A stretch of DNA of 64,000 bases from a virus, in IMG/VR virus record IMGVR_UViG_3300010373_000003, positions 28,896 to 92,895 of that record, one strand, 5' to 3'. Position numbers and translations under genes: made by a program. Below the pieces are notes generated by a model that had not been told where the DNA came from, did not search any database, and saw only the letters and a list, made by a program, of their open reading frames with translations. This document shows, one piece after another, positions 35,101 to 46,309 of this stretch (position 1 is the stretch's first letter; each line of letters opens with the position of its first letter).

Positions 35101-36731
35101 AAAACATTACTTCTGCTAAATATATGATAGCTAACGTTACTGGTGGTATAGCCAACGTTGGTACAGGTATGGCTAACGTATTAGGTGAAACTTTTGCTAG
35201 TGATTATTTTGGTAAAGATGCTTTCACTAAAGGTCAGCAAAGATACTTTAGTAATAGTCTTAGTTTCCTATCTGATATGTATAGTGATACTACTAATAAT
35301 CCTACAGTTGGTATTTCTAAACTATTTGATGTAGTTGACTTTGATGCGTTTACTGAACGTAGACCTAATGAGAAAGCTACTGAAATGGTTAAGAGAGTTA
35401 GAGATAGTTTATATTCTATGCAAAGTGGTGGTGAACATTATATGCAGAATAGTGTTCTATTTGCTATACTTAAGTCTCATAGACTATTTAAAGATACTGA
35501 TGGTCAAATGAGAGTTGGTAGTATTTCTAACTATAATTGGGAACTAGAAGTTCAAACACTTATGGGGATGCTTAATGGTAAAGAAGATTTACTTATTAGG
35601 TATAAGAGTTTTATTAAGGATGTTAAAAGTGACCTTAATGAACTACGTAAGTATGATAGTTTTACTAGAGATTTTAATGAAGAGTTTCTAAGAGATATAG
35701 GAGATAGACAACTTATTAAAGAATATATTGCTGAAAGAAGTAAAGCTCTTGCTAATTCTGAAGAAGAATTTAATAAGAATCCTTTAGCTGAAGATCAATT
35801 CGAATTAGTTGATGGGCAAACAGTTATTAAAGCTGGAAGTCTTATGGACGGTAGAATGTTTGGAGAACTTAGACAAAAGGTTATTTCTATTAATAAGAAA
35901 ATACATGGTGTATATGATAAGATAGGTGCTGCTAGTATTGAAAAAGAATGGTGGGGTGGTTTAGCTATGCAATATCATAAACATATATATCCCGGTATTA
36001 TGAAAAGATATCGTATGAAAGGTTATTATAATGAATCTCGTTCTAGTGTAGAAAAAGGTTCTTATGTTTCTCTTGCTGATTATCTTTCTACTGAGTTTAG
36101 AGGTTTAGGTAAACGTGTTAATAGTAGAGTTGAAACTGATAATGAGAATGTTGCACTTGCTTCATTCCAAGAAGTTATCAAAGCTTCAGTTGATACTGTT
36201 CTTAACCTTAAAACTAATTACCAGTTAATGCCTGTTTGGGAACAGAATAATATTAGACGTGCATTAGGTGATTTACTAGGTATAACATCTGCTTTTATGG
36301 TAGCTATATCTATTCATTTAATGACTGATGATGATGAGATTAAAGAAAGTGAATTACTATCTACTGCTTTATATATGGCAGATAGACTTAATTCAGAGTC
36401 TGCAATGTATACTCCTTGGGGATTATTTGCTGAAGCTGGAACTCTTTGGTCTTCTCCTATTGCTGCCCAGAATGGACCTAAGGATTTGTTTAAAGGTTTA
36501 GGTATTGCTACTGGTATGTTGTTTGATTCTGAATATAATCCTAACTATACTACAGGATTATATAAAGGAGAGAATAAACTTGCAGTACTACTTTATCGTA
36601 ATACTCCTATTTATAGAGTTGCTCAACGTCTAAGTACTATGACTAAGAATAACAATTACTATAAGATTAATGAGAATGCTCTTAATATTAAATTTGCTAA
36701 AAGTATTGCTAATACTATTAATCCTGACTAA
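23133..36731 (+). CDS. virion-packaged DNA-dependent RNA polymerase (crAss-type, single polypeptide)
   Basis: 4532 aa; GYRIPTEGKQS and catalytic GSDFDVDS (DxDxD at 28176-28190); DAQSYIT and RQIKNAEF double-psi-barrel-region motifs. Confidence 0.9.
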   Translation: MSCIEYGFTIQGDVDNKLARSVEYVAGADYTKATILASYFGTEDFAQYVEQETETRDYANVNANTMRRLLGSFFVSRHNSINNTINKKNADTLNGFSSAKAKTIAKDHTANLIIESYYNEINKPKADRIGKDAIIREVSKTINNHFNSKVAVPLIKRVQAENTNKAALSLIEKASAINAQIKDLNRQRTNLVAQFNQDQEEGVSTILDTSIDAIGTQLATKDSERYVIFKNIIELAGNVREKNYSTLTSQVRGNTYSWYESVFATSKLVNLVDEFNITLENDKIIERNYTDENDVSNPDSDSVDEMSKSWEDSLYGSFDRHVNAKLKVYLDRVYRLATPTPIGSNEYQFDDNNELGVPMTIGANFIIAQISNYATFNSVDDFINSVSRVSQINPALYGLSKVVNDMLADRVFANQVFQQLANPKIAKTIITIADNDINFDQSNKSADALSHLVFNFINSAKSNYRSSFSLSDKESIKDGLLNLNKVKDVNVFNNGAIIKSTDDLINGLLVKYFPKIDRSSVNNYLRNNPADSVNIYKGVLQDLSGLINSVEDIVDDYNSKWGDYLGQYRTWANKRKIANEIGESFGEPMPVFDYSSVDYNKLYPSVISLAKKLVNYTAVKNELNSINAEGNMASDLIGNNYITNFLKQIQYGTAEEADAGLNRLKDFITKSPQYKYSPFYFGTKDSRGNTLVEGLFNRDISGKVTVNPNARNMINISLFDGAKDRSNSKSTMYSGMSKGDYFLTQLVAFNTPINYVTQEGNNVPTAGFFMRTPSDAPKNFIVQAPKYNIDGLWQVVTASRNQYVADIQKELGNKFTFTNEGQYIDMSEDIITGSIKGKISNNVMTAEQIYDMFRNPIDNKTYTNLYHTYDPNTNKVLIPIIYNTEEGPLITYLEGDKVVGTVNNIAENIVIKEVYTFSNMLDGVLPYEFLIDIADTITQDGINEGRIQRSIDKNNPAFRALHAHALGEVNNFVNNLNNVFEKKAGKWVTKSNTHNLIDRAHYNGDSVVKDGVLTGNFFNFIRLFETQGYKANEEIKNAFFLYGGDTANGIDPLLVKNKKGDLTLNINRKDLIAINNNHIELSISDNNLEVIDSVVENWLNNYYNEVLDKTSQFNTIIEDRYSNNDIVDYAVNNAIMEMNFDDVFEGDSKFYKGPQDFLKRAKEVQAAGKAYTGFNINEAIGGPVHPIKDASGGEIPIMVNGVEVAKARNGFKGVTIYNTVRPSQSAGQIKQELVGILTPSVGKTEANRIATEISQGYFDSTKVNDAQSYITLDEFIARRHADGTLNDYQDLLAQLTDDKISVGDMNLKGINARIQVQKNFYFDKQFDDNTGTFYPRQIKNAEFVLIPKLIKGTDLETLYNIMKANGVDQVNTVEASKAAKKNILTFWDNQGVANAEAFDASLKADNNIAIEDYYYQYLYKQQDVADHMVNEKNKAGIQIMKKIIDNANAEVQGDIDNFFNSYVANIKDDFNMLLNRMGWRVENGSLVDSSGKTNADGKNVLQFEDFYKKARVEAQRLGMDSNFIEYLTPDQFGSPVMPNYMNNVSSKLESIAQSIFNNGVTRQTLPGWHAAQVTSVGHGVPSLGEDGVWRTLKYHPQVTREDGTVVQEAYAEVMLPRWSTLIPKDYDISKLESEGIDIHLGYRIPTEGKQSISNLKVVAFLDEVYGSTIMVPDEWVTQTGSDFDVDSVYGISHEIYKDREGTIKKVQFDNSTEVKDVERRYVNYINGAIEHRVDKDIIPDEFITDKVNEARDQIKDLDIVRKESKYLGELISNHGSIYRQLPTEVQDQVKSINRRFRTGNIYDRYNALAATFEVLSSQETGELKDVYEEFGSYSEAIANAYEYIKSIDTDSIPKFNKSEVIKGIFENARIEYLNKVKKAAKASNLVTYEEFANWSIEDQNSRKARNNRILDSMINVMNNSNSREENYSRSNFDDLSNAMKKMNALRGASSIVRSAYNPLDQVDFMENAMSGATLKAFSVTRDTFNSVNNYTKSKLGEGHEIKVEYDLNQYDIKHLNSAYNGVQLDKSRNVAIVMHNSLANSNNNRNVVGKILTVYSSQTTAHILDAVKEGTIFNENDYTFGTFKTLIDVGIDYETAIGFLMQPGITKIVDAYFQSKSIYINSTSNPINVAIKSIATDLGITIGGRAIDDYTPVKSVVQRLSTYPRLQMAYRQLFAANLGYNNTIDVQSQNLNGLMLQNRLKGVEITNTLTLTLDQQQYQNAAFDLAMIANFDKYRKTTRNIEALARVSNPDRFGAKQTIRGTRVTLNNIAKYATDPNDIVGETIMVGNKNIIQSLYPGFNTREGIDITNSSYPYLAAFLKFATQPSVEANSQLFPTESNSYNAITDTVQARMGINFTDEQYKEYKQYMISNVYAGVPFLTSPLTLNEYGLITLDNVAIEAEVNLNNQYWDVERSRIFGYDVTQSGNITIKDINNPNEEEVFNFNQLTPAQKVIWIQRNFNEGRGVFDFLDVNTFNQYEFKNKGFSSQSIKYSDQIDDIEEVYVAFRDSFFNKNPLVRLATIDLIKYSFVAEGFKFKRGSISKIITNDTLYSNLEDKGINLIEAIQQQFMIYNNPLEATTQKFIDKFIRSHSELVKEVSIPKGKTDKQGNENIGRKFNRQIQGENIVFIPFAESTKELLEHLNIIEDSPKGYVRIGRYINDTQRRTTLYKVTNTRQGVYLTPLNILERNETSEYSVNAKNNLYKATEYYDAIINLSVDNGVPVNELLKDGKTVEQLNILKDQFTITPHKSKHIIESVENTNEVIRVMQYGTNIEQAETAKFVSDIVDYITSPVEEAGNYGVIKNDNGFINSLIPHGVSVIQNIPNGEDIITVKITKHTKKNGLSKQFEYVLKGDKRGDLAKVKPEERKALQNSIDAKSIRPTLYKIERVTSEQERENYEELRKQVEDQAASQMNAVTNLIEDFDVDVVFNYTETDKVAKDIFNELNKRALSNDDKRAVKFKKAMDIAGIDRTSANSIHDNKRNIYTSAAKYYTERSHELLSNIESFTGINGEQYSIDNPDLYKHLTEYPEDYPLLLKLILDAKTFGDQFYDIFNLNLVGEDESTSKAIEKTRAAINNVRTSSKLKNAVNLMFNDYIANNYSTNSLVRHGIIELKTQFGDTDWFDSIFSDVGELNHKQVQSVVKYVNTVINEATKVIAPKSINTFNKQYETIEKSTGPFDINNIITKQGKFVTPYTEQFLEDREKIVSDVKVAKDTYGIDSIQYVKAKLARDEWRAKNVHQDIISTYYNENNALLRNVINQAPDEYIEYMRLIHELYGDQRSPSLLTKEEKDYRKELNTKIRNITSDFNQSGELKSDKQRFQAARLKNYINAKKLLNEEYFDYNETDGFKDTVEYYTNIIKQYEKKHPLETLDQKLNNSNYAEAYEWIKGNTIYTLDAATQKIISDSFAALKSKDNTSSFEVKKILKDSDAYDRYGNIDARKLSTEQLTKIKQLTEHKFSWTYESNAGEAILIKDVPSDLPVLSDKFYRMLRGSSENDSGVNVERIAVIGKINALLGRAVDRNTGQINSKDLFDKLTEDELNDLGSYYRRLHNIKGDRNNKELAEKFKANVDFKVNDAAFNREWAYAQSNLKNTKHYDTWLNIFIQTNKDGEYVTDEQGKFVANNDIFGYIEPKDKTYIDAERTAARQVLENDIEYVPTEYYYAALKEASNNGTFNEWYNANHVFNPYSHRMEPLKVWTEMQVNPNGNLNGTYSYAPTYENTERTVKDDFINPNHKQYSTNYNTDSGDYNNLSKLSTKERDMLDLLQSTINAHASTHSMRMFAEQGYLPRRARHTPDAKWYVGQALGSMGLEFRNTGEQQWTDKIDYTNDFDTDFDMMSLIKQKGYKERIKIDSKGTRESDEDYAKRVEDIRKENKLIDEANLKLDNEILDNDWKSVFNDFINKSTEYNAKQRAKNTVYLLLEDLKDSPAFKESAWGRNLKRDGARSTNEQDSYQTVGQTNTHKTVENWARRILFDQFKKGSPYSKYADLAQNITSAKYMIANVTGGIANVGTGMANVLGETFASDYFGKDAFTKGQQRYFSNSLSFLSDMYSDTTNNPTVGISKLFDVVDFDAFTERRPNEKATEMVKRVRDSLYSMQSGGEHYMQNSVLFAILKSHRLFKDTDGQMRVGSISNYNWELEVQTLMGMLNGKEDLLIRYKSFIKDVKSDLNELRKYDSFTRDFNEEFLRDIGDRQLIKEYIAERSKALANSEEEFNKNPLAEDQFELVDGQTVIKAGSLMDGRMFGELRQKVISINKKIHGVYDKIGAASIEKEWWGGLAMQYHKHIYPGIMKRYRMKGYYNESRSSVEKGSYVSLADYLSTEFRGLGKRVNSRVETDNENVALASFQEVIKASVDTVLNLKTNYQLMPVWEQNNIRRALGDLLGITSAFMVAISIHLMTDDDEIKESELLSTALYMADRLNSESAMYTPWGLFAEAGTLWSSPIAAQNGPKDLFKGLGIATGMLFDSEYNPNYTTGLYKGENKLAVLLYRNTPIYRVAQRLSTMTKNNNYYKINENALNIKFAKSIANTINPD
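26251..26265 (+). repeat. dispersed motif copy 5 (TCCTCTACGGGGGAG)
   Basis: Exact core; encodes FLYGG in the RNAP. Confidence 0.95.
31498..31513 (-). repeat. dispersed motif copy 6 (TCCTCTACAGGGGAAG, 1 core mismatch)
   Basis: Encodes SPVEE in the RNAP. Confidence 0.8.
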
Positions 36732-37436: not shown

Positions 37437-37598
37437 TTACTTAAACTTCTCTATAAGATACAGCTTATATAACTCTAAAGTAGTAAGATGTCCTTTTGTA
37501 TGAACATACCATTTACCTAGTTTAGAGTCATAACTAAACCAACTATCTTTAGTAAGTTTATCACCAATCCATTGAGCAAAGCCTATAGTATTAGTCAT
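37437..37598 (-). CDS. small hypothetical protein
   Basis: Start MTNTIGFAQW overlaps the stop of the upstream gene (translational coupling). Confidence 0.55.
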   Translation of the reverse strand: MTNTIGFAQWIGDKLTKDSWFSYDSKLGKWYVHTKGHLTTLELYKLYLIEKFK

Positions 37599-38067
37599 TA
37601 TTAGATTTAGCTTTAAGACCATTCTTAGCCCATTGTAGAACAAAACCAAGATGACCCCAAATCTTATTAGTAATATCTCTACGAGCTATTTCATTACCAA
37701 TTTCTTGATCATAATTAGCAGGATCTACACAAGCAGATGTACCTAATGTATCAAAACCTGTAATAGTAGTATCTAGGACAACAGTAGTTTTCTCACCAAG
37801 TTTAGTACTTGTACCTTGAACTATAAACGATTCAACATCGCTAAAAGAAATCTTAGTACTATCTTCAATAGCTAGATAGTTATTATCAAATCTATCTTTA
37901 GTAGCCCACTCTTTGTAGTTACCATAATCAACTAGATAACCTTCGTCATCAGCTTCTTCACCAAGATCACTAAGATCAGCTTTAAAATAACCAGACTCAA
38001 TAGCTTCTTTTCTAATCATAGGTTCAGCAGAAACAAGCTCTACACCTATATAATGTTTTTTATTCAT
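37591..38067 (-). CDS. two-domain protein with C-terminal N4 Gp49/Sf6 gp66-family (Acb4-like sponge) domain
   Basis: GTSACVDPANYDQEIGNEIA..IWGHLGFVLQW; the N-terminal YIG..V.AEPM..GY.V.Y..W..KD.F domain is commonly fused to DUF2829 proteins. Confidence 0.65.
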   Translation of the reverse strand: MNKKHYIGVELVSAEPMIRKEAIESGYFKADLSDLGEEADDEGYLVDYGNYKEWATKDRFDNNYLAIEDSTKISFSDVESFIVQGTSTKLGEKTTVVLDTTITGFDTLGTSACVDPANYDQEIGNEIARRDITNKIWGHLGFVLQWAKNGLKAKSNND

Positions 38068-38317
38068 TAGGATTTTTATAATTAAGTTTACATATTACTA
38101 TATTAACATTCTTACCAACAGGTTCGGTAGAACTAAATAGAGTAGGATTAACACCAGTAATATAATGATGACCAGGTTCCCAACCTTTATGATTAGCTCC
38201 TTCAGGAGAATCATAGGATCCTTCACTATAATCATGAATAACCTCTCCACACATAACACATTTTTGTGTTTTAGTATTAGGATTATAAGCAGCTAGATAA
38301 TGTTTAATAACTCTCAT
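38060..38317 (-). CDS. small Zn-binding hypothetical protein
   Basis: H..QKCVMCG..C motif; ATG start at 38317. Confidence 0.55.
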   Translation of the reverse strand: MRVIKHYLAAYNPNTKTQKCVMCGEVIHDYSEGSYDSPEGANHKGWEPGHHYITGVNPTLFSSTEPVGKNVNIVICKLNYKNPNE

Positions 38318-38318
38318 A

Positions 38319-38711
38319 TTATGTATAGTCTTCAATAATTTCCCTGCTACCAATCATACAAACTCCCCATTTAGGAGGAATTTCTCCTAGTACAGAAATA
38401 GCACCATTAAAATAAATCAATTGATACTTATAATAAGTCTTAGATTTATATTTAATATTATTAGTAATACAAAAGCTTTTAAAAGCTTCTTCAACTTTAA
38501 GTTGTTTAATTTTAGCTTCTTCTAGTTTAGCTTTTTCATCTATAAGTTCAGCCCATTCAAATAATGGAGTACCTATAAGTTTACCTATAGATTCATCAGG
38601 TATTTTAACAGTTTCATCTATAGCTAAAGAATTATGATCTATAAGCCATCTATTACCATGTTTAGTACGAGCAATACCTCTTCTTTTAGTATATTTTATT
38701 TCAGTACTCAT
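38319..38711 (-). CDS. hypothetical protein
   Basis: 130-aa ORF tightly packed in the operon. Confidence 0.6.
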   Translation of the reverse strand: MSTEIKYTKRRGIARTKHGNRWLIDHNSLAIDETVKIPDESIGKLIGTPLFEWAELIDEKAKLEEAKIKQLKVEEAFKSFCITNNIKYKSKTYYKYQLIYFNGAISVLGEIPPKWGVCMIGSREIIEDYT

Positions 38712-38714
38712 AAC

Positions 38715-39977
38715 TTAAGATTTAAAAGTTTCTTCAATAAGATGACGACGTTGTATAAAACCACGATAGTTTCTACACCAACCTAATTCTATAACATCTT
38801 TTATCTCTTCAATAGTTCCTTGTACAACAACATCAGGTCTTTTTCCTTTGGATGTACTAACATATTCTTTATCATCCATAGCACGAGAACAATGTTCCAT
38901 AGGAGAACTATGAGGAGGTTGTTGAATAAGAAGTTTATCATCAAGAGTATATAAATCTCCCCATTTAACTTCTTTCTCATCACCAACTATAGTATAAGAA
39001 GTTCTAGCTCCCATAGCAGTAGAAATCTTAATCTTATCTCTAAGCCATTGTATCCCAGTACTTCTGTTACCAGAATTAACATCTGATAATATAGAGATAA
39101 TTTTATTATCAAAAGGAATATGCCATTCACCAGCTTTAAGTTGTTTAGGAATACTTTCATTAACAGTATCATAAATAAGTTCAGCAAGATACATCATATG
39201 TATTTCAGCTTGACCTGTATTTTGTTTAAGTCTATCTAAAACAGAAAACTCATTAAGCCATTTAGCTCCTGCAATACGATCAACATGTTCAGGATTAGAT
39301 GAAGTAATTTCTTCATTATGTTTAATAACATCTTTCCAAGACTTAAATCTCATATCTACAGAAGCAGCTCTAGGAAGAATATATTGAGGACAACGAAGAT
39401 TAAAGAAGTTATCCCAACCTCCTTCAAGACTACCAGTAATAAGCATAGTAGTCCACATAAAGGTTTCAAGTAGTCTATTACATAACTGTTTAGTAACATT
39501 AAGTACATAAAGAATGGTAGCACATTCTACAGCTTTATCTCTAGCAAATAACCACCAATCAATAAGAGACTTAACCTTATTTTTATAATCAACAAGGATA
39601 GTTTCAACAAGTTCAACTCTTTCTTTTATTTTAGCTTCAAGTAAAACATATTCTTTAGAATCTTTAGGATAAGTATTTAAAGTATCATAAAGAATAACTA
39701 TAAATTCATCAAGAGTAACTTTCTTATCAGGATTAAGATATTCACTACCTTGCATACCAGAATGATCTTTCTGCCAAGCAATAGGAATAAAAGGATTATC
39801 TTTAACAGATTGAACCATTTTCTTAAATGGTATAGCACGACTGCTAGAAGTATTCTTACTTAGCATTCTATGAGTATTAACTTCTGCAAGTATAATACGA
39901 GGAAATGTACATAGTATAGAAATAAGTCTATCTCCTTGTGGAGAAAGACTATCAGCAACAATTTCAGCTTTAAACAT
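38715..39977 (-). CDS. thyX: flavin-dependent thymidylate synthase (ThyX/Thy1)
   Basis: FPRIILAEVNTHRMLSKNTSSSRAIP, KQLCNRLLE, WDNFFNLRC, AEIH, HSSPMEH. Confidence 0.85.
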   Translation of the reverse strand: MFKAEIVADSLSPQGDRLISILCTFPRIILAEVNTHRMLSKNTSSSRAIPFKKMVQSVKDNPFIPIAWQKDHSGMQGSEYLNPDKKVTLDEFIVILYDTLNTYPKDSKEYVLLEAKIKERVELVETILVDYKNKVKSLIDWWLFARDKAVECATILYVLNVTKQLCNRLLETFMWTTMLITGSLEGGWDNFFNLRCPQYILPRAASVDMRFKSWKDVIKHNEEITSSNPEHVDRIAGAKWLNEFSVLDRLKQNTGQAEIHMMYLAELIYDTVNESIPKQLKAGEWHIPFDNKIISILSDVNSGNRSTGIQWLRDKIKISTAMGARTSYTIVGDEKEVKWGDLYTLDDKLLIQQPPHSSPMEHCSRAMDDKEYVSTSKGKRPDVVVQGTIEEIKDVIELGWCRNYRGFIQRRHLIEETFKS

Positions 39978-40116
39978 TATCAAAGTTTAATTTCTTAATT
40001 AATTCAATTATTTTAGCAGCAGCAACTTCAGCAGCAGTATTTTGATTATTAGAATTACAAATAGATACTGTTTCGTTTAGTACACTAATAGCGTTTATTA
40101 TAGTTTGATTTTCCAT
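39970..40116 (-). CDS. 48-aa helical hypothetical protein (not in ORF track)
   Basis: MENQTIINAISVLNETVSICNSNNQNTAAEVAAAKIIELIKKLNFDNV; fills the gap and its stop overlaps the thyX start. Confidence 0.55.
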   Translation of the reverse strand: MENQTIINAISVLNETVSICNSNNQNTAAEVAAAKIIELIKKLNFDNV

Positions 40117-40125
40117 GATATAATA

Positions 40126-40335
40126 TTATATTCTTTCTACTTTATAAACTCCTTTAATTTCATCTTCAAAATAGTTGCCAGGAGAAGCACTATCTAATAG
40201 TTTTTCTAATACTTCTCTAGGAACACCTAAATATTTATATTGAGCTCCTCTATTAAAAGTTAAATATAAAGTATTATCTTCCCAACCCGCATAACTAATA
40301 CGAGTTGAGTTAACAGGATGCATTGGAACTGGCAT
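40126..40335 (-). CDS. KTSC domain protein
   Basis: V.STRISYAGW..TLYLTF..G..Y.Y.GVP...LL.SASPGNYF..IKG.Y. Confidence 0.85.
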   Translation of the reverse strand: MPVPMHPVNSTRISYAGWEDNTLYLTFNRGAQYKYLGVPREVLEKLLDSASPGNYFEDEIKGVYKVERI

Positions 40336-40338
40336 AAC

Positions 40339-40605
40339 TTATAATTCAATAGTTGCAATTTCCCAATCTTCAGCAAAAATATCATTAATGCTAGGAACCC
40401 AAGTACTAACAGTATCATTAACATTTTTAATAGCTAAATACTCATTATAATTAACATACTCACCAAATACCATTTTAGCAAGTTCTGTCATAGAAGGATA
40501 TGTAGCAGCAGGAACATAATATACAAACATCCCTTTTCCATTCCAACCTTTTCTGCAAATAGGTTTACCTTCTTTAGCAGCTTTTGTAGCTTCTCCAAAA
40601 TTCAT
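40339..40605 (-). CDS. tad2: DUF2829 / Tad2-family nucleotide-signal sponge
   Basis: MNFGEA..A.KEGK...RKGWNGKGMFV ... WVPS.NDIFAEDW, the DUF2829 signature. Confidence 0.8.
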   Translation of the reverse strand: MNFGEATKAAKEGKPICRKGWNGKGMFVYYVPAATYPSMTELAKMVFGEYVNYNEYLAIKNVNDTVSTWVPSINDIFAEDWEIATIEL

Positions 40606-40611
40606 AATAAC

Positions 40612-40818
40612 TTATATTTTATGGTTACGTTCAAGATCTAAATTACAATAAAGCCAAGCTTCCTCTAATTTAGAATTAACAATAGCTCTTTCACGAGCTT
40701 TAGGTAAAGTAGCAACTTTAGACATTAATACTGCAATATCAGCAGCAATACTGTACATAACATCAGCGTTATCTATTTGTTCTTTAGTAGCAAGAGGTTT
40801 ATTTACTTGTTCGCTCAT
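40612..40818 (-). CDS. Acb2/Tad1-like helical hairpin protein
   Basis: RERAIVNSKLEEAWLY resembles the RE.s.A.TKLEEA.MW hallmark; 68 aa; adjacent to Tad2. Confidence 0.55.
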   Translation of the reverse strand: MSEQVNKPLATKEQIDNADVMYSIAADIAVLMSKVATLPKARERAIVNSKLEEAWLYCNLDLERNHKI

Positions 40819-41878
40819 TATTAGTTTCTTTCTTTAATTTATAAATTATAACATCAATATCAATATCAGCACTTTCATTATCTCTACAATAATTCTTTTT
40901 AAAAGTATTAAGCAAAGTAATTACTTTCTTGTTTTTAGCAGCAATTCTAGCAGAAGTAAATTTATCTTTACGATTAGTTACATTATCTTTTTTAAACTTA
41001 GGATGATTCTTAAGAACATCTTTAACACGTTGATTATTAATAACCTCTTTATGATAAGTATCATAAAATTGTATTTTATTATCAACAGTTATAGCTTTAA
41101 TAGGTTTAACTTCTTCATCTGTAAGTCTAGAAACATAACTATAATCTCTAGAATTATAATTAACAGGTTTACGAACAACTACTTTAGACCTGTTATAAGC
41201 TTCTAGTATTTTAGAAGTAGAACGATCTATATCCCAATCATAAGGAACTCGTCTATCTCTATCTAAACTGAGATGCTCAGGATTAATATTATAGGAATAA
41301 TTAAGATTTGGTATATTACATACAAATAAATTACCTGAATAAATATTACCAGTACTTTTGTTATTGTTAATAAGTTGGCCATAATAGTCATCATCAAATA
41401 GTATATCGTCTTTAGTAATAATATTAGAAACAAAAGTATTATATATTTCTCTAGGACAATTAAACGTAGTTTTAAATAGTTTATCATTAAAATCTACAGA
41501 AGTATAAGTAATATGAAATGATTCACCAATAGCAACACTTCTATCAAAACCTCCAATAAGTCTGTAATGATATGTGTCTAAAGCAAAATAATGATTTTCT
41601 CTAGTAAATATAAGAAAAGCAGCTTTAAGACCTTCACCATGATGACCAATTGATTTACCATCTGATTTACTAGTATTACCTAATCTTAGAAACTCTAATG
41701 AATTAGGATTATAATCATTAGAAATGGTAACATTAACAATATTAGGATTAGGAGTATCTTTGACTTTTAAGTCATATTTACCATAATCAATATAATTTTG
41801 AAATACTTCTCTGAGAGCATCTTCTATAGTCCAAGACTCTAGATAATCTCTACCAAAAGCATATTGTACTTTATTCAT
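40799..41878 (-). CDS. GHKL (HATPase-like) ATPase domain protein
   Basis: DALREVFQNYID (N box), LGNTSK, IGHHGEGLK (G2 box). Confidence 0.7.
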   Translation of the reverse strand: MNKVQYAFGRDYLESWTIEDALREVFQNYIDYGKYDLKVKDTPNPNIVNVTISNDYNPNSLEFLRLGNTSKSDGKSIGHHGEGLKAAFLIFTRENHYFALDTYHYRLIGGFDRSVAIGESFHITYTSVDFNDKLFKTTFNCPREIYNTFVSNIITKDDILFDDDYYGQLINNNKSTGNIYSGNLFVCNIPNLNYSYNINPEHLSLDRDRRVPYDWDIDRSTSKILEAYNRSKVVVRKPVNYNSRDYSYVSRLTDEEVKPIKAITVDNKIQFYDTYHKEVINNQRVKDVLKNHPKFKKDNVTNRKDKFTSARIAAKNKKVITLLNTFKKNYCRDNESADIDIDVIIYKLKKETNNERTSK

Positions 41879-41881
41879 AAT

Positions 41882-42115
41882 TTACAATAATATAGTATTA
41901 TTAGGATTATATTTAAGATCTGTAAATACTCTACAAAAATTATGTTTATTCATACAATATCCTTTGTTATCAGCAGTACTTTTATAATAAACACCATTAT
42001 AAAAAGATCCAGTAAAAGGATCTAAGCACTCTACAAAATCAATTAATCTGTAAGTTATATTAGACCTTATATGAGTATAATACATACCTCTTTGAATAGT
42101 ATCTATATCTAACAT
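41882..42115 (-). CDS. small protein, DUF1653-like
   Basis: YYTH....Y.LI......VYY......Y.M....F...F pattern. Confidence 0.4.
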   Translation of the reverse strand: MLDIDTIQRGMYYTHIRSNITYRLIDFVECLDPFTGSFYNGVYYKSTADNKGYCMNKHNFCRVFTDLKYNPNNTILL

Positions 42116-42117
42116 AT

Positions 42118-42450
42118 CTAATCTATAAGTTCTTTAAACCTATTATAAATATGATCAAGTTCTTGTTCATTAACAAGAATACTACCACCTATTCCCATAA
42201 TACGATACTTATCTTTAGTACCATTATGATCTCTTTTAAATAAGAATTCATATACAGGAATAATAATAGTTTCACCTCCTTTAACAATTTCTAAAGCTGA
42301 GTTAAGATCATCTTTAGAAATATCAACAGTATCAACTTCTTTAGTTGTATCCATCTTCTGCATTTCACCAACTTTTTCATCAGTGTTAACAGTTTTACCT
42401 ACTCCTTGAATAGGAGTTACTTTAGTTTTATCAAATTTAAATTGAGTCAT
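42118..42450 (-). CDS. hypothetical protein
   Basis: ATG start MTQFKF immediately after the upstream stop. Confidence 0.55.
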   Translation of the reverse strand: MTQFKFDKTKVTPIQGVGKTVNTDEKVGEMQKMDTTKEVDTVDISKDDLNSALEIVKGGETIIIPVYEFLFKRDHNGTKDKYRIMGIGGSILVNEQELDHIYNRFKELID

Positions 42451-42451
42451 C

Positions 42452-42940
42452 TTAATATTCTTTAACAAATGATAAATTAGCAGGACTATAATTAATAGAT
42501 TTAAGAGTCTTGCCATCAGGTTGACGAACTATAATATAAATAGTTTTATAATCTAAACTATTTACATCATAAATCTCTTTAGCAATATAACCACACTCAA
42601 CACCTTCTCTTTCATACTTAGCAACAGTAAGTTCAGCTTCTTCTTTAGAAATACAAGCTTTACTCATATTAGAACGTTGAACTTCAGCAAATATACTAGG
42701 GAATAAATCAACCATTCCACATTCAACAACAGTACCATCTAAGAAGTATCTAGCATCTGCTAAAGCATCAGCAACCTCTACAATATCTTTATTAGCTAAA
42801 GCTTGTTTTAATTCTTCTAGTTCATCAATTATCCATTGAATCCTAGTAGCAAGTCTTGCTTCATCAATAAGAGTAGGTTTTGTTTCAACAGGATGGTTAA
42901 ACGTTTCATGAAACACTTTAACAGCTTCTAATGTATTCAT
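42452..42940 (-). CDS. MazG-like / PRA-PH nucleoside triphosphate pyrophosphohydrolase
   Basis: V..FHETF, DELEEL, EVADALAD..Y, EVQRSNMSK, DGKTLKS..Y.P. Confidence 0.85.
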   Translation of the reverse strand: MNTLEAVKVFHETFNHPVETKPTLIDEARLATRIQWIIDELEELKQALANKDIVEVADALADARYFLDGTVVECGMVDLFPSIFAEVQRSNMSKACISKEEAELTVAKYEREGVECGYIAKEIYDVNSLDYKTIYIIVRQPDGKTLKSINYSPANLSFVKEY

Positions 42941-42945
42941 ATTAA

Positions 42946-43980
42946 TTATAAAGTTAAAATTAAATTACCAGCAGTCTCTATTTTCTTAGATTTATCTCCA
43001 TAAAGAAGACTATCCATACGCTTAAGACCAACAGCGCTATCTACATTTGAATAGTATCCAGTAATAGCACCATATACTCCCCATCCAGTATCAAGTATTT
43101 CTCTTTGACCGGGACCAGTATAATAGTACTTATTGATCTCATGTATAGTATTAACTTTCTTCATACTAATACCGCTATCTTCAATAGCAGACCAATTCTT
43201 AGCAACAATTTGTTCAATAGTATGACCTGTAACTTTAATAGCTTCAAGTTCAGCATCATTTAAAATAACAGAAGCAAATACACTTTGAGCTTTCTTTTCA
43301 GGATAAGCTCTTTTATACATAGCTTCATAAGATTGACTAACAGCATCTATCCTATCTTTACATATACCAAGTATTTCATTGGCAGTATCTATATTATTAA
43401 GTACAGATTTAGTATGACGGAAAGATACATAATTACTAGTACTAGCAATAGCAGCATTTAGTGTATTTCCACAAATAACTCTAATAGGAGTAAGTAGAAT
43501 TTTAACACCTCCAGTACCATCATGAGTAGTTGTAAATACAAGATAAGTATCTACAGGATCTTGTCCATTAATAAGCATTCCAGTGGGAAGTTTAGCAGAA
43601 ACAAATACTCTTTCTCCATTACCAAAACATCCAGCAGTTTGCCAAATAGCTTTGTTTTTACCTATAGCACCATCAAAGAATTTAAAAGCTTCAACGTTTT
43701 GTACAGGAGTATAACGACCTTTAACAACACCTAATGGTATATTATTATCAGTACGATATACAGAGAAAGCATTAGGACAATCTATATAGAAATCTCCACC
43801 ACGAGTAAATCCATCTTCTCTTTCAGAATCAGATGATTTAGCAGGAGTTTTAGCAACAAGTTCACATTTAGCAACTTCCCAATCTAACTTTGCTGCAATC
43901 ATTACTTCTTCAGCAGTGCGACAATTTTCAACATTAACAACACCTTTAAATGCGAAAGGTATACCTTTAATAAAACTCAT
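42946..43980 (-). CDS. DUF932 (TIGR03299-like) phage/plasmid protein
   Basis: LDWEV, RTD..PLGVV..RY.PVQN.EAF.FFD, TAG..GNGERVF, HDGTG, TPIRVIC.NTL, RHT. Confidence 0.85.
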   Translation of the reverse strand: MSFIKGIPFAFKGVVNVENCRTAEEVMIAAKLDWEVAKCELVAKTPAKSSDSEREDGFTRGGDFYIDCPNAFSVYRTDNNIPLGVVKGRYTPVQNVEAFKFFDGAIGKNKAIWQTAGCFGNGERVFVSAKLPTGMLINGQDPVDTYLVFTTTHDGTGGVKILLTPIRVICGNTLNAAIASTSNYVSFRHTKSVLNNIDTANEILGICKDRIDAVSQSYEAMYKRAYPEKKAQSVFASVILNDAELEAIKVTGHTIEQIVAKNWSAIEDSGISMKKVNTIHEINKYYYTGPGQREILDTGWGVYGAITGYYSNVDSAVGLKRMDSLLYGDKSKKIETAGNLILTL

Positions 43981-43986
43981 ATCTAC

Positions 43987-44730
43987 TTATTTATTTAACT
44001 TGGTATATTTACGAATATCATACGTACCTTTAATAGATTCATCTACTTCGGTAATAACAATATATTTACTTCTAAGAACTTTTAGCATAGGATCTCTAGC
44101 ATCAACAGTATAAATATGATTAGTATTAAAATCATTTATAACATCTTGTATAACACTAACTCCTAGCTTAACAGATGTAAATAAATCTATATCTTTAGAT
44201 CTATTTATATCAATAGTACAATAACTAATATATTCTCCAGTAACAACTCCTCCTTTAGTAATATAAACTTTACCAGTCATAGTCCAATCTGGAGCTGGTA
44301 CAAATTCTTTATTATGATTATGGTCATAAGCTGACTTTACATAACCTATATAAGGACTAATATGAATATATATAGCAATACCTTGATAGACCTCTTTCCT
44401 AATTTGATCATATCTTTTATTAAAATATACTTCAAATTTATCTCCATCAATCACATCACTATCATCCAAATAAAACTCATTATCATCAAAAGTTAAAGGA
44501 GATAAAGGTTTACCTAATATTAAAGTATAAAGATCATTAATATTAGCAGCTATTTCTTTATGATTAAAATAGTTAAAATTAATAATCTCTGCTATACGAA
44601 GTAAAGTATTAAAATTATTTAATACTTTAAGACCTTCTTCACTAGTTTGATCAAGAGAAGCTAATTTAATATTAGCCTCTCTTGCAATTCTAGTAGCAAG
44701 TTCATTCTCGTTATCTAACGTGTCATACAT
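43987..44730 (-). CDS. hypothetical protein, paralogue of 45566..46309
   Basis: KPLSPLTFDDNEF..NKRY..TGKVYITKGGVVTG aligns with the paralogue. Confidence 0.6.
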   Translation of the reverse strand: MYDTLDNENELATRIAREANIKLASLDQTSEEGLKVLNNFNTLLRIAEIINFNYFNHKEIAANINDLYTLILGKPLSPLTFDDNEFYLDDSDVIDGDKFEVYFNKRYDQIRKEVYQGIAIYIHISPYIGYVKSAYDHNHNKEFVPAPDWTMTGKVYITKGGVVTGEYISYCTIDINRSKDIDLFTSVKLGVSVIQDVINDFNTNHIYTVDARDPMLKVLRSKYIVITEVDESIKGTYDIRKYTKLNK

Positions 44731-44731
44731 A

Positions 44732-45553
44732 CTATTTCATTTGTATAGATTCATTTTTAACAATCTTAGCAACAGAAGGATAACTGAATTGTTTATCATT
44801 ACCTTCTGTATTATTAATAGTATCAGCGGTAACAATAACAGATTTCCAATCATCTTTAGCTGTATGATCTCTCATACTAGTATTTATAGGATTTTTAGCA
44901 TAAAGAATTAAAGCATCTTTACCAGTTCTAAACAAATCATAAATAGATTGAGTAGTAGTAATCTCTATTTTAAGAGTAGTAAGATCAGAAAGAGTATAAG
45001 GTATAAATTCACCTTTTAATTCTAAACCAAGTACCTCAGTGTTTTGGGCGTCATGTTCAGCTTTAAGATTAGCATTAACACTATCAAGGATACCTTGTAG
45101 TTCAACATCTTGTCCTGTATATAATACTCCATTATCAACAAGTTCACGTACATATCTTTCAAATTCTCCTATAAGAATTCTAATTCTAGCGTCATTAGTT
45201 TCAACAGATTGACTACCTTTAGTAAATAATCTTACAGTAGGTAGATCAATAAACTTATTAGTCTTACCTTCAGTACCAAACATCTGTACAGCACCAAGCA
45301 TAGCTTTCTTAAGTTGAGTAATTCTAGTCTCCTTAGTTTTAGCTTTAGCTTGAAGTCTCTTAACTTCTTTCTTAACAACATCTACATCTCCATCTAGCGA
45401 AATGATATATTTAACATAGTTGTCAAGCTTAACATTAAGATTCTCTTTAGTAATATTTAATTGAGCATAAGTTTCATCACTTATCTCCCCATCGTTTTCC
45501 TCTATCTCCGCAAAGATACGAAGTAACTCTTCTTCAATATTATATAAACTCAT
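44732..45553 (-). CDS. Siphovirus Gp157-family (Gam-like) protein
   Basis: MSLYNI..E..DGEI..L....E.L..KLDNY..YI..L..D....KKE.KRL..K. Confidence 0.75.
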   Translation of the reverse strand: MSLYNIEEELLRIFAEIEENDGEISDETYAQLNITKENLNVKLDNYVKYIISLDGDVDVVKKEVKRLQAKAKTKETRITQLKKAMLGAVQMFGTEGKTNKFIDLPTVRLFTKGSQSVETNDARIRILIGEFERYVRELVDNGVLYTGQDVELQGILDSVNANLKAEHDAQNTEVLGLELKGEFIPYTLSDLTTLKIEITTTQSIYDLFRTGKDALILYAKNPINTSMRDHTAKDDWKSVIVTADTINNTEGNDKQFSYPSVAKIVKNESIQMK

Positions 45554-45565
45554 ACAAATATTATA

Positions 45566-46309
45566 TTAGTAACCGTAATTATGAGTAAGACGTTTAATAG
45601 GTTGGTTCTTAATATCAGGAACCTCAATATACTCAATATTATAATTAGCAATTATCTCCTGATATTTAAGACTTTTAACATCAACAAACATTAACCAATC
45701 ATCAGAAGTAACTTCAATTTGAGTTACAGGTAGATAAATAATTCCTTTGGGAATATATCCACCTTCTGTATGTTCAGGTTTAACATAACAACGTCTAAAA
45801 GCTTGACCTGTAGCTAAACCAGCTCTACATAGAAAGACAGTACCAGTATAAGTGCCACCATTATGATCTATAACATCTTTTTCATTTATAAACTTACTCT
45901 TAACAACTTGTTTAACAAAAGCATTGACATTATAGATACCTTTATCATCCATAAATATGTGACCATATCTATTATTTTGTTTAACATTAATATCTCTATC
46001 AACTTTATTCCATTCATCATCATTAAGTTTAAGAGCAGATATTATTTTAAAATTAGCAAGTTTACTAAATAGATCAATACCCATACCAGAACTAAACCCA
46101 CTATGACCGAATGTACTAAACAACTTAAGTAATTTAATAGTCTGATCAGCAATAAGTTTATTCATAGAATCTCCTGTATAGAATCCAGCTAAAGTAAGTT
46201 CTCTTGTAGCATGATTAATTGTACCACTTTTCTTACTTAAATGGTCAAGAGCAAAATTTAGCATAAACATTAACACTTTATACCTAAAACGAGCAATAGT
46301 ATTTTTCAT
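45566..46309 (-). CDS. conserved phage protein
   Basis: HA.REL..AG...LL..FS..GHSGFS...F..LA.FK.IS.L...D.EW. Confidence 0.65.
   Translation of the reverse strand: MKNTIARFRYKVLMFMLNFALDHLSKKSGTINHATRELTLAGFYTGDSMNKLIADQTIKLLKLFSTFGHSGFSSGMGIDLFSKLANFKIISALKLNDDEWNKVDRDINVKQNNRYGHIFMDDKGIYNVNAFVKQVVKSKFINEKDVIDHNGGTYTGTVFLCRAGLATGQAFRRCYVKPEHTEGGYIPKGIIYLPVTQIEVTSDDWLMFVDVKSLKYQEIIANYNIEYIEVPDIKNQPIKRLTHNYGY

What the first reader, a model, noticed from the sequence alone, without database searches (positions are those of the whole stretch)
37591..43980. Anti-defence island with three different putative nucleotide-signal sponge families
Seen within about 3 kb: a DUF2829 protein (40339), an adjacent RE..SKLEEA helical protein (40612) and a Gp49/66-family fusion (37591), interleaved with ThyX and KTSC. 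A GHKL ATPase, a MazG-like gene and DUF932 lie just beyond. Established: Tad2 (DUF2829) and Tad1 sequester Thoeris gcADPR signals, and Acb2 binds CBASS cyclic oligonucleotides. From memory, Acb4 belongs to the Gp49/66 family. Inference: this crAss-like phage carries a stacked toolkit against signalling-based immunity in Bacteroidota, and the unknown small genes between these are good candidates for new inhibitors.
Basis: partly seen in the sequence, partly recalled or inferred. Interest (0 to 1): 0.8.

Follow-up and report, generated by a model that had tools for sequence, protein, structure and literature searches.

The report
crAss-like phage anti-signalling gene cluster
A complete gut crAss-like phage carries, beside its giant polymerase-like gene, a tight cluster of genes from four protein families already known to soak up or block bacterial alarm molecules, so this is a well-supported further example of a described kind of phage counter-defence locus and not a new system.

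Summary
On the minus strand lie:
- a Tad2 sponge (40339-40605; Pfam E 3e-25);
- an Acb4-family domain behind an unnamed N-terminal module (37591-38067; Pfam E 3.6e-16; fold match to Acb4, PDB 9e4w);
- a 68-aa Acb2/Tad1-hairpin relative (40612-40818). It is sub-threshold alone, but two homologues pass Pfam's cut-off, and the family profile hits Acb2_43 at E 2.8e-4.

Outside the given range are two Tad3-family paralogues (45566-46309 and 43987-44730). Tad3 binds ThsB directly.

- The Tad2 belongs to the ModTad2 clade, which binds His-ADPR (type II Thoeris) and cUMP/cCMP (Pycsar). ModTad2 does not inhibit type I Thoeris.
- The Acb4 fusion is a core crAss-like gene, found in Carjivirus communis and crAss002. 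The Tad2 and the Acb2-like gene sit in a lineage-specific expansion of a variable slot, 4.9 kb here against 0.6-2.4 kb in 62 relatives.

All four families are published. An equivalent anti-signalling hotspot holding Tad2, Tad3, Acb4 and Sequestin is described in N4-like phages. I file this as a new member of a known kind.

The most novel lead is the 72-residue N-terminal module. It recurs fused to Tad2, Acb4 and Sequestin. This scan had already noted such a module on other DNA.

The parts
37591..38067 (-). 158-aa two-module protein: unnamed N-terminal module X (residues 1-72, nt 37852-38067) plus an Acb4-family domain (residues 73-149, nt 37621-37851)
   Evidence: PF13876 E 3.6e-16. AlphaFold2 model pLDDT 94.2. 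Foldseek top hit is SPO1 Acb4 9e4w, E 3.8e-4, probability 1.0. VIA-align Z 7.8, rmsd 3.0 A, 76 residues aligned. 528 homologues, many on contigs of about 90 kb. Present in crAss002 and Carjivirus communis gp41.
40339..40605 (-). 88-aa Tad2 sponge of the ModTad2 clade
   Evidence: PF11195 E 3e-25. PDB 8v3e/9eib ModTad2 E 2.4e-31, 47 of 84 aligned residues identical by my count of the printed alignment; SPO1 Tad2 E 6e-15. It keeps all 19 invariant positions of a 27-sequence clade alignment.
40612..40818 (-). 68-aa helical-hairpin protein, a short relative of the Acb2/Tad1 hairpin family
   Evidence: PF24729 at 17.9 bits alone. Homologues P0123 (28.4 bits) and P0125 (36.2 bits) pass the cut-off of 27. 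Family profile against PDB: Acb2_43 (9ptq) E 2.8e-4, Tad1 (8kbb) E 0.0037. Model pLDDT 84 with two long helices.
45566..46309 (-). 247-aa Tad3-family protein (Tad3a), outside the range given
   Evidence: PF25185 E 7e-26. Profile of 8 crAss-like homologues against PDB Tad3 9b7d_B: E 8.3e-10 over chain residues 3-111.
43987..44730 (-). 247-aa divergent Tad3-family paralogue (Tad3b), outside the range given
   Evidence: PF25185 at 15.5 bits only. hhalign of the Tad3a and Tad3b family profiles: probability 98.9%, E 2.9e-17. Its profile against Tad3 9b7d: E 0.0062.
38715..39983 (-). ThyX-type thymidylate synthase, 422 aa (context, nucleotide metabolism)
   Evidence: phrog_85 E 6e-48. RHR-type motif visible in the translation.
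40126..40335 (-). KTSC-domain protein, 69 aa (context)
   Evidence: PF13619 E 4.7e-15.
40799..41878 (-). GHKL-like ATP-binding protein, 359 aa. Its end overlaps the start of the 68-aa gene by 20 nt.
   Evidence: phrog_6077 E 6e-42. Homologues annotated histidine kinase-like ATPase or HATPase. Atlas neighbours carry MPN635_N / HATPase_c_3. No Pfam hit.
42452..42940 (-). MazG-like nucleotide pyrophosphohydrolase (context)
   Evidence: PF01503 E 9.7e-13; phrog_671 E 5.7e-27.
42946..43980 (-). DUF932 protein, the conserved left anchor of the variable slot
   Evidence: PF06067 E 1.5e-42. Found in 63 of 80 related loci.
44732..45553 (-). Gp157 / Gam-like protein lying between the two Tad3 paralogues (context)
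   Evidence: PF05565 E 3.7e-14; phrog_253.
38060..38711 (-). Two small ORFs of unknown function: 97 aa (Cys/His-rich) and 130 aa
   Evidence: No family hits. The 130-aa ORF has no match in 50,697 phage records.
41882..42516 (-). Two small ORFs of unknown function: 77 aa and 132 aa
   Evidence: No family hits. The 132-aa ORF has no match in phage records.

Best explanation
This is an anti-signalling counter-defence cluster. It lies at the far end of the leftward replication and nucleotide-metabolism gene block of a complete crAss-like phage, next to the end of the giant RNAP-like gene.

Inferred mechanism, from homology only:
- During infection the phage makes several small oligomeric proteins that remove or prevent host alarm nucleotides.
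- A ModTad2-type Tad2 tetramer sequesters His-ADPR (type II Thoeris) and perhaps cUMP/cCMP (Pycsar).
- An Acb4-type tetramer sequesters CBASS cyclic dinucleotides.
- A short Acb2/Tad1-type hairpin protein sequesters a further ligand, not yet identifiable.
- One or two Tad3-type proteins bind the TIR protein ThsB and block signal synthesis.

These genes are interleaved with ordinary nucleotide-metabolism genes: ThyX, MazG-like and dNMP kinase.

The Acb4 fusion and DUF932 are conserved anchors. The 4.9 kb between them is a lineage-specific expansion of a variable slot.

Shown here: family membership, fold, synteny. Inferred: ligand identities, oligomeric states and any effect on defence.
For: - Pfam hits above the curated cut-offs for Tad2, Acb4 and Tad3a.
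- Tad2 matches ModTad2 (PDB 8v3e/9eib) at E 2.4e-31.
[quoted passage not shown] It also binds cUMP/cCMP.
- The Acb4 domain model (pLDDT 94) matches 9e4w best by both Foldseek and VIA-align. The lower hits are the dsRBD, release-factor and hibernation-factor folds that the Acb4 paper also reports.
- The SPO1 Acb4 guanine-pocket residues K36/F48/E49 align with K93/F105/D106. These are invariant in 35 crAss-like homologues.
- All eight Acb4 homologues tested by Chang et al. bound 3'3'-cGAMP.
- 68-aa family: all 6 members hit PF24729 at E up to 1; two score above the cut-off. The family profile hits Acb2_43 and Tad1 first in PDB.
- Tad3a profile against PDB Tad3: E 8.3e-10.
- Slot expansion: the DUF932-to-Acb4 gap is 0.6-2.4 kb in 62 loci, against 4.9 kb here and 5.5 kb in L004.
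- A published parallel exists: a hotspot with Tad2, Tad3, Acb4 and Sequestin between primase-polymerase and virion RNAP in N4-like phages.
Against: - No function was tested.
- The 68-aa protein is sub-threshold on its own. It is shorter than any characterised Acb2 (76-94 aa). It has Ala where the Lys at chain position 20 of Acb2_43 (probably the paper's K19) aligns. Its helical-hairpin fold is non-discriminating: 790 chains score Z >= 5.
- The SPO1 Acb4 phosphate contacts Y57 and T70 align with V114 and I127, so the ligand may differ.
- About a quarter of the sponge homologues tested in the literature inhibited none of seven systems.
- The host and its defence repertoire are unknown.
- Tad3a/b and the Acb4 fusion are conserved within replication modules, which would also fit a housekeeping role.
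- I could not obtain the His-ADPR contact residues of ModTad2, so pocket conservation is unchecked.
Confidence: 0.75

Rival explanations
1. Only two real sponges are present, Tad2 and Acb4. The 68-aa hairpin protein and the two Tad3-like proteins do something else, such as replication accessory or structural roles. The 'island' is simply the one genome region that tolerates accessory genes.
For: - The 68-aa protein scores below Pfam's cut-off, and short helical models give sub-threshold hits in 9 of 14 control genomes.
- Its fold is generic.
- The Tad3a/b pair flanks a Gam-like gene and is conserved in a subclade of crAss-like phages.
- The Tad3 match covers only the N-terminal half.
Against: - Two homologues of the 68-aa protein pass the family cut-off.
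- The best PDB profile hits are all Acb2 or Tad1.
- The Tad3a Pfam score, 90.8 bits, is far above the cut-off.
- Tad3 is reported in the equivalent N4-like hotspot.
Confidence: 0.17
2. The DUF2829 protein acts as an anti-CRISPR of the AcrIIA7 type and not as a nucleotide sponge.
For: PDB hits include AcrIIA7 (9kzr, E 6.5e-12) and 'Inhibitor of Type II CRISPR-Cas system' (8kbi, E 2e-11).
Against: - It is far closer to ModTad2 (E 2.4e-31) than to AcrIIA7.
- The 8kbi protein (HgmTad2) itself binds 3'cADPR and cyclic dinucleotides, according to the literature quoted.
Confidence: 0.04
3. The X-Acb4 protein is a core crAss-like protein with a nucleic-acid-related housekeeping role derived from its dsRBD-like fold, not an immune-signal sponge.
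For: - It is conserved across crAss-like phages at 39-44% identity, always near DUF932.
- The fold resembles dsRBD, release-factor and hibernation-factor domains.
- Two SPO1 phosphate-contact residues are not conserved.
Against: - The guanine-pocket triad is conserved and invariant.
- All eight tested PF13876 members bound cGAMP.
- Relatives of the same gene gain a C-terminal Sequestin (P0093) or a Tad2 (BFVD A0A8S5M092). This fits a sponge platform.
Confidence: 0.04

Closest known systems
ModTad2 / MoTad2 (Myroides odoratus prophage Tad2; PDB 8V3E, 9EIB)
   Same: Same length (88 aa) and same Pfam family. 47 of 84 aligned residues are identical, E 2.4e-31. Both come from Bacteroidota-associated viruses.
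   Different: Ligand binding is untested here, and the pocket residues could not be compared. The gene is in a lytic-type crAss-like genome, not a prophage.
SPO1 Acb4 (PDB 9E4W; PF13876)
   Same: Same domain family and same alpha-beta-beta-beta-alpha core (Z 7.8). The guanine-pocket residues K/F/E(D) are conserved.
   Different: - Only 24-26% identity.
- An extra 72-residue N-terminal module.
- The positions aligned with phosphate contacts Y57 and T70 are V and I.
- Oligomeric state and ligand are unknown.
Acb2_43 (PDB 9PTQ) and Tad1 (8KBB, 7UAV): the Acb2/Tad1 hairpin family PF24729
   Same: Two long antiparallel helices carrying the RE(K/N)...(T/S)KLEEA motif. The family profile hits these proteins first in PDB.
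   Different: - 68 aa, against 76 aa for Acb2_43 and 120-140 aa for Tad1.
- The window protein scores below the family cut-off on its own.
- Ala at the position aligned with the Lys at chain position 20 of Acb2_43 (probably the paper's K19).
- Very small subfamily: 5 homologues among 1.8 billion representative proteins.
Tad3 (PDB 9B7D; PF25185), a direct inhibitor of type I Thoeris ThsB
   Same: The N-terminal region of about 110 residues is homologous (profile E 8.3e-10). This is the part reported to interlock with ThsB.
   Different: 247 aa against 194 aa, with a different C-terminal half. Two diverged paralogues are present. Their target in Bacteroides is unknown.
Anti-signalling hotspot of N4-like (Migulavirinae) phages (bioRxiv 10.64898/2026.06.04.730250)
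   Same: A compact, variable locus beside the virion RNAP gene and replication genes. It holds combinations of Tad2, Tad3, Acb4 and Sequestin among genes of unknown function.
   Different: - A different phage order (crAss-like) and Bacteroides-type hosts.
- No Sequestin in this genome.
- Bes1/Bes2 homologues were not looked for.
- An Acb2/Tad1-type gene is present here.
Published sponge fusions: Acb4-Tad2 of Pasteurella phage Pm86, and Sequestin fusions (bioRxiv 10.1101/2025.07.12.664507)
   Same: The Acb4 domain serves as a platform fused to other small modules. Relatives of the window gene add Sequestin or Tad2.
   Different: In the window the partner is module X, which belongs to no named family.

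Membership tests
Tad2 (PF11195, DUF2829) | Sequence match above the family's curated cut-off | tested here: met
   89 bits against a cut-off of 25, covering 1-72 of 73 profile positions.
Tad2, ModTad2 clade (His-ADPR / cUMP binders) | Closer to ModTad2 than to gcADPR-binding Tad2 proteins | tested here: met
   110.7 bits to 8v3e/9eib, against 58.3 to SPO1 Tad2 and 47-48 to HgmTad2 and SptTad2. All 19 clade-invariant residues are kept.
Tad2, ModTad2 clade | Conserved His-ADPR and cUMP pocket residues; homotetramer | not tested
   The residue lists appear only in figures or in a paper that is not held. No multimer modelling was available.
Acb4 (PF13876) | Sequence match above the cut-off, and the Acb4 fold | tested here: met
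   59.9 bits against a cut-off of 27. Foldseek 9e4w E 3.8e-4, TM (target) 0.6-0.7. VIA-align Z 7.8.
Acb4 (PF13876) | Ligand-contact residues of SPO1 Acb4 | tested here: inconclusive
   Conserved or similar: K36/F48/E49 align with K93/F105/D106; I66 with I123; F62 with Y119. Not conserved: Y57 with V114, T70 with I127. K81 lies outside the alignment.
Acb4 (PF13876) | Homotetramer with four inter-protomer pockets; cyclic dinucleotide binding | not testable with these tools
   Only a monomer prediction was available.
Acb2/Tad1 hairpin (PF24729) | Sequence match above the curated cut-off | tested here: inconclusive
   The window protein scores 17.9 bits, below 27. Homologues P0125 (36.2 bits; 45% identical to the window protein) and P0123 (28.4 bits; 54%) pass, and L004's copy scores 26.7. 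Family profile against PDB Acb2_43: E 2.8e-4.
Acb2/Tad1 hairpin (PF24729) | Helical hairpin with the conserved RE...TKLEEA core | tested here: met
   Model helices at residues 18-35 and 41-66. R42, E43, L51, E52 and A54 are invariant in the 6-sequence alignment. The fold alone is generic.
Acb2/Tad1 hairpin (PF24729) | Hexamer with nucleotide pockets | not testable with these tools
   No multimer or ligand modelling was available. The Lys at chain position 20 of Acb2_43 (probably the paper's K19) aligns with Ala in the window protein.
Tad3 (PF25185) | Sequence match above the cut-off | tested here: met
   45566-46309 scores 90.8 bits against a cut-off of 27. 43987-44730 scores only 15.5 bits, but is linked to the first by hhalign at probability 98.9%.
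Tad3 (PF25185) | Homodimer that binds ThsB and occludes its active site | not testable with these tools
   No co-folding was available and no host ThsB is known.
Sequestin (PF21825, crAss001_48) | Sequence match anywhere in the genome | tested here: not met
   No match at E <= 1 in the whole 92.9-kb record. Module X is distinct from Sequestin: P0093 carries X, Acb4 and PF21825 side by side.
GHKL ATPase (for 40799-41878) | Recognisable Bergerat-fold ATPase family match | tested here: inconclusive
   No Pfam hit. Homologues at 24-32% identity are annotated histidine kinase-like ATPase or HATPase. Atlas neighbours carry MPN635_N or HATPase_c_3.

The most novel reading that the evidence does not exclude
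The unnamed 72-residue N-terminal module X is itself a functional anti-signalling element. It would be a further ligand pocket or a specificity or oligomerisation adaptor, and not a passive extension. Its predicted topology is beta-alpha-alpha-beta-beta-alpha, with the motif GY-V-Y-DGY-SW-PK.

If so, the core crAss-like gene, including gp41 of the prototype crAssphage, would encode a dual-function sponge. A very widespread phage domain would gain a function.

The module is found fused to Acb4, to Tad2, within Sequestin-containing fusions, and alone.
Probability: 0.3. Interest if true: 0.65.

Novelty: new member of a known kind. Interest (0 to 1): 0.4.

Why it matters
- crAss-like phages are the most abundant phages of the human gut, and their counter-defence repertoire is little studied.
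- This genome implies that their Bacteroides-type hosts use several nucleotide-signalling defences at once: type II Thoeris/His-ADPR, Pycsar, CBASS and TIR-based sensing.
- It also shows that crAss-like phages have the same kind of variable anti-signalling locus next to the polymerase gene as N4-like phages.
- It offers a ModTad2-clade protein and a very short Acb2/Tad1 relative as ready reagents for capturing unknown Bacteroides immune signals.
- It points to module X as an untested partner domain.

Tried and rejected
- Megablast of the 11-kb block against 50,697 phage records found no match.
- The search for related loci with the single 158-aa protein found nothing. The alignment query worked.
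- The word-index homologue search for the 68-aa protein returned only the protein itself. The exhaustive HMMER search gave 5 homologues.
- Fold searches with the 68-aa hairpin model were uninformative. Foldseek gave nothing at E <= 0.001, with Tad1 chains only at E 5.5-6.6. VIA-align gave 790 chains at Z >= 5.
- Module X has no Pfam hit. Its profile gave no meaningful PDB sequence hit. No solved-structure match covering residues 1-68 appeared, because the lists were filled by the Acb4 domain.
- I tested whether X is a degenerate Tad2 domain, after seeing weak secondary HMM matches. hhalign of X against Tad2 gave probability 0.9%, E 0.059, so the idea is not supported.
- Sequestin is absent from the genome. 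The Lockin accession quoted in an earlier scan note (PF26760) is not in the Pfam library at hand, so Lockin was not tested.
- PHROGs found nothing for the two giant ORFs.
- The published Nature version of the His-ADPR paper is not held, and the preprints name no pocket residues in their text.
The contexts of Tad2 homologues on contigs of about 90 kb (P0138, P0231) could not be examined.
- No co-occurrence of the GHKL-like gene with other Acb2-like loci was found.


Full report
**Genome and gene layout**

The window is bases 28896-92895 of a complete 92,895-bp IMG/VR virus record with direct terminal repeats. Plus-strand structural genes end with two giant ORFs of 2,112 and 4,532 aa. GC skew flips at about 36.8 kb. 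From 36895 onward all genes run on the minus strand, tightly packed.

Homologues of the 4,532-aa ORF occur only in crAss-like and Bacteroides phages. Recorded hosts are B. intestinalis, B. cellulosilyticus and B. xylanisolvens, and one homologue is annotated 'putative RNAP'. Further along the minus-strand block lie an ATP-dependent ligase, a primase and a DNA polymerase. The region of the finding is therefore the far end of the leftward replication and nucleotide-metabolism block of a crAss-like phage, next to the end of the RNAP-like gene.

**Checking the observation**

- 37591-38067: PF13876 on residues 76-145 (E 3.6e-16).
- 40339-40605: PF11195 Tad2-like (E 3e-25).
- 40612-40818: PF24729 Acb2_Tad1_hairpin, 17.9 bits, below the cut-off of 27.
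- 40126-40335: KTSC.
- 38715-39983: ThyX (phrog_85 E 6e-48).
- 42452-42940: MazG-like.
- 42946-43980: DUF932.
- 40799-41878: no Pfam hit. Its phage homologues are annotated histidine kinase-like ATPase or HATPase. Its ESM Atlas neighbours are MPN635_N / HATPase_c_3 proteins. The 'GHKL' label is plausible but only weakly tested.

The recalled link between Acb4 and the Gp49/66 family is correct. Chang et al. state that SPO1 Acb4 belongs to PF13876.

**Tad2**

The 88-aa protein matches the solved ModTad2 (8v3e, 9eib) at E 2.4e-31, with 47 of 84 aligned residues identical. SPO1 Tad2 scores only E 6e-15, and HgmTad2/AcrIIA7 about 1e-11. The protein keeps all 19 invariant positions of a 27-member alignment of its closest relatives.

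The clade matters for the expected ligand. ModTad2 did not inhibit type I Thoeris. It blocked type II Thoeris and was the reagent used to capture His-ADPR. It was later shown to bind cUMP and cCMP in a second pocket and to inhibit Pycsar. The likely targets are therefore His-ADPR and perhaps Pycsar signals, not gcADPR as the finding implies.

The clade is large, with 461 proteins at E <= 1e-10. Its best matches among named phages infect Proteobacteria, Bacillus and Tenacibaculum, not Bacteroides.

**Acb4 fusion**

An AlphaFold2 model built on 35 homologues has pLDDT 94.2. Residues 73-149 match SPO1 Acb4 best:
- Foldseek E 3.8e-4, probability 1.0, 24-26% identity.
- VIA-align Z 7.8, rmsd 3.0 A, 76 residues aligned.

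The next hits are release-factor, dsRBD and hibernation-factor folds, the same neighbours reported for Acb4 itself.

I mapped the ungapped HMMER alignment onto the published contacts. The guanine-pocket residues K36/F48/E49 correspond to K93/F105/D106, which are invariant in the crAss-like family. Of the adenine-pocket residues, F62 aligns with Y119 (similar) and I66 with I123 (identical). The phosphate contacts Y57 and T70 correspond to V114 and I127. A nucleotide pocket is likely, but its specificity is open.

The gene is a core crAss-like gene. It has 528 homologues, many on contigs of about 90 kb. tblastn matches of 39-44% identity include crAss002, cr107_1 and Carjivirus communis gp41, which is already annotated as pfam13876.

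**The 68-aa protein**

Its family is tiny, with five homologues among 1.8 billion representative proteins. All six members match PF24729 at E up to 1. P0125 (36.2 bits) and P0123 (28.4 bits) exceed the cut-off, and the copy in locus L004 scores 26.7. A profile of the family finds Acb2_43 (9ptq, E 2.8e-4) and then Tad1 chains as its best PDB matches. The RE...(T/S)KLEEA core is conserved.

Acb2_43 is a 76-aa Acb2 that binds 3'cADPR and inhibits type I Thoeris, not CBASS. The window protein is shorter still. It has Ala where the Lys at chain position 20 of Acb2_43, probably the paper's K19, aligns. Its hairpin fold (pLDDT 84) cannot discriminate between families.

I rate it a probable member of the superfamily with an unknown ligand.

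**Beyond the given range: two Tad3-family genes**

45566-46309 hits PF25185 (Tad3) at E 7e-26. A profile of eight crAss-like homologues hits the solved Tad3 at E 8.3e-10, over the N-terminal 110 residues. 43987-44730 is a diverged paralogue: hhalign probability 98.9% against the first family, and E 0.0062 against Tad3.

Tad3 is not a sponge. It binds ThsB and blocks its active site. The pair flanks a Gp157/Gam-like gene and is conserved in 7-9 of 80 related loci.

Four anti-signalling families, in five genes, thus lie within 8.7 kb. That is 5 hits in 16 consecutive genes, with a rough permutation p of about 0.002.

**Synteny**

I compared 80 IMG/VR loci that hold the X-Acb4 gene.
- DUF932 is present in 63 and the ligase in 59.
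- The Tad2 is present in none.
- ThyX, KTSC, MazG, the GHKL-like gene and the Acb2-like gene are each present in one locus only, L004.
- The gap between DUF932 and X-Acb4 is 0.6-2.4 kb in 62 loci. It is 4.9 kb here and 5.5 kb in L004.
- In the other loci the slot holds a dUTPase-like gene and small Cys-rich ORFs.

The finding therefore sits in a variable slot that has expanded in this lineage. L004 lacks the Tad2 and has the Acb2-like and GHKL-like genes in the opposite order.

**Module X**

Residues 1-72 of the 158-aa protein form a confident beta-alpha-alpha-beta-beta-alpha module. It has no Pfam hit and no PDB sequence hit.
- The same module, by HMM, is present in 23 of 80 ModTad2-type loci, in most of them fused N-terminally to Tad2.
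- It occurs in X-Acb4-Sequestin proteins (P0093).
- The best BFVD match, over 154 aligned columns, is a 270-aa protein named as Tad2-like-domain-containing, which suggests an X-Acb4-Tad2 fusion.
- The ESM Atlas finds structural look-alikes in Sequestin+Tad2 and Sequestin+Acb4 fusions and in stand-alone 75-aa proteins.
- It is not detectably related to Tad2.

Recurrent fusion to known sponges is the argument that led to the discovery of Sequestin. Because X is in no Pfam family, that survey could not have picked it up. Earlier agents of this scan noted what appears to be the same unnamed module on other genomes. Those notes are unchecked leads, not independent evidence.

**Comparison with the literature and verdict**

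- Tad1, Tad2, Acb2, Acb4, Sequestin, Lockin and Tad3-8 are published.
- Sponge fusions and several anti-signalling genes in one phage are published.
- A June 2026 preprint describes a variable anti-signalling hotspot between primase-polymerase and virion RNAP in N4-like phages, holding Tad2, Tad3, Acb4 and Sequestin.

The window is the crAss-like counterpart of that hotspot. It is a new member of a known kind.

Points of moderate interest:
- a ModTad2-clade gene in a crAss-like phage, which implies His-ADPR or Pycsar-type signalling in its host;
- a minimal 68-aa Acb2/Tad1 relative;
- module X.

No function was tested. Ligand assignments are inferences from homology.

Noticed in passing
window 37852-38067 (residues 1-72 of the 158-aa protein); L087, L095-L097, L116, L130, L135, L145, L147: An unnamed module of about 70 residues (motif GY-V-Y-DGY-SW-PK) recurs fused N-terminally to Tad2 or Acb4, in three-module fusions with Sequestin, and alone. 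It has no Pfam family and no solved structure found by sequence.
   Followed up: partly
window 38068-42945; L005-L083: The interval between DUF932 and the X-Acb4 gene is a variable slot in crAss-like phages. It is 0.6-2.4 kb in 62 relatives (a dUTPase-like gene plus small Cys-rich ORFs), 4.9 kb here and 5.5 kb in L004.
   Followed up: yes
L004:1307-3462: In the closest relative, a 15-kb fragment, the Acb2-like and GHKL-like genes are adjacent but in the opposite order to the window. A 290-aa ORF with a CxxxCxxC-type motif (radical-SAM-like, by eye only) follows the GHKL-like gene, just upstream of KTSC. No Tad2 is present.
   Followed up: no
window 40799-40818: The end of the GHKL-like gene overlaps the start of the 68-aa Acb2-like gene by 20 nt, which suggests translational coupling of the pair.
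   Followed up: no
window 38715-39983: The ThyX homologue is unusually long (422 aa). It matches Pfam Thy1 only weakly (E 0.05), yet matches phrog_85 strongly in two stretches, which suggests a large insertion.
   Followed up: no
window 43987-46309: Two diverged Tad3-family paralogues flank a Gp157/Gam-like gene. This three-gene arrangement is conserved in a subclade of crAss-like phages (L018, L024, L041, L058, L076, L080, L081).
   Followed up: partly
window 38319-38711 and 42118-42516: The 130-aa and 132-aa ORFs have no family hit and no tblastn match in 50,697 phage records. They are orphans inside the cluster.
   Followed up: partly
window 16664-23002 and 23133-36731: The two giant ORFs (2,112 and 4,532 aa) match no PHROG family. 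The larger one has homologues only in crAss-like phages, one of them annotated 'putative RNAP'.
   Followed up: partly
BFVD hits to model mfc2fdee8919e: Among the structural matches to the model are phage proteins annotated 'Ryanodine receptor Ryr domain-containing' (Erwinia phage phiEa2809, Yersinia phage TG1). This recalls the RyR-like gcADPR sponge reported in N4-like phages.
   Followed up: no
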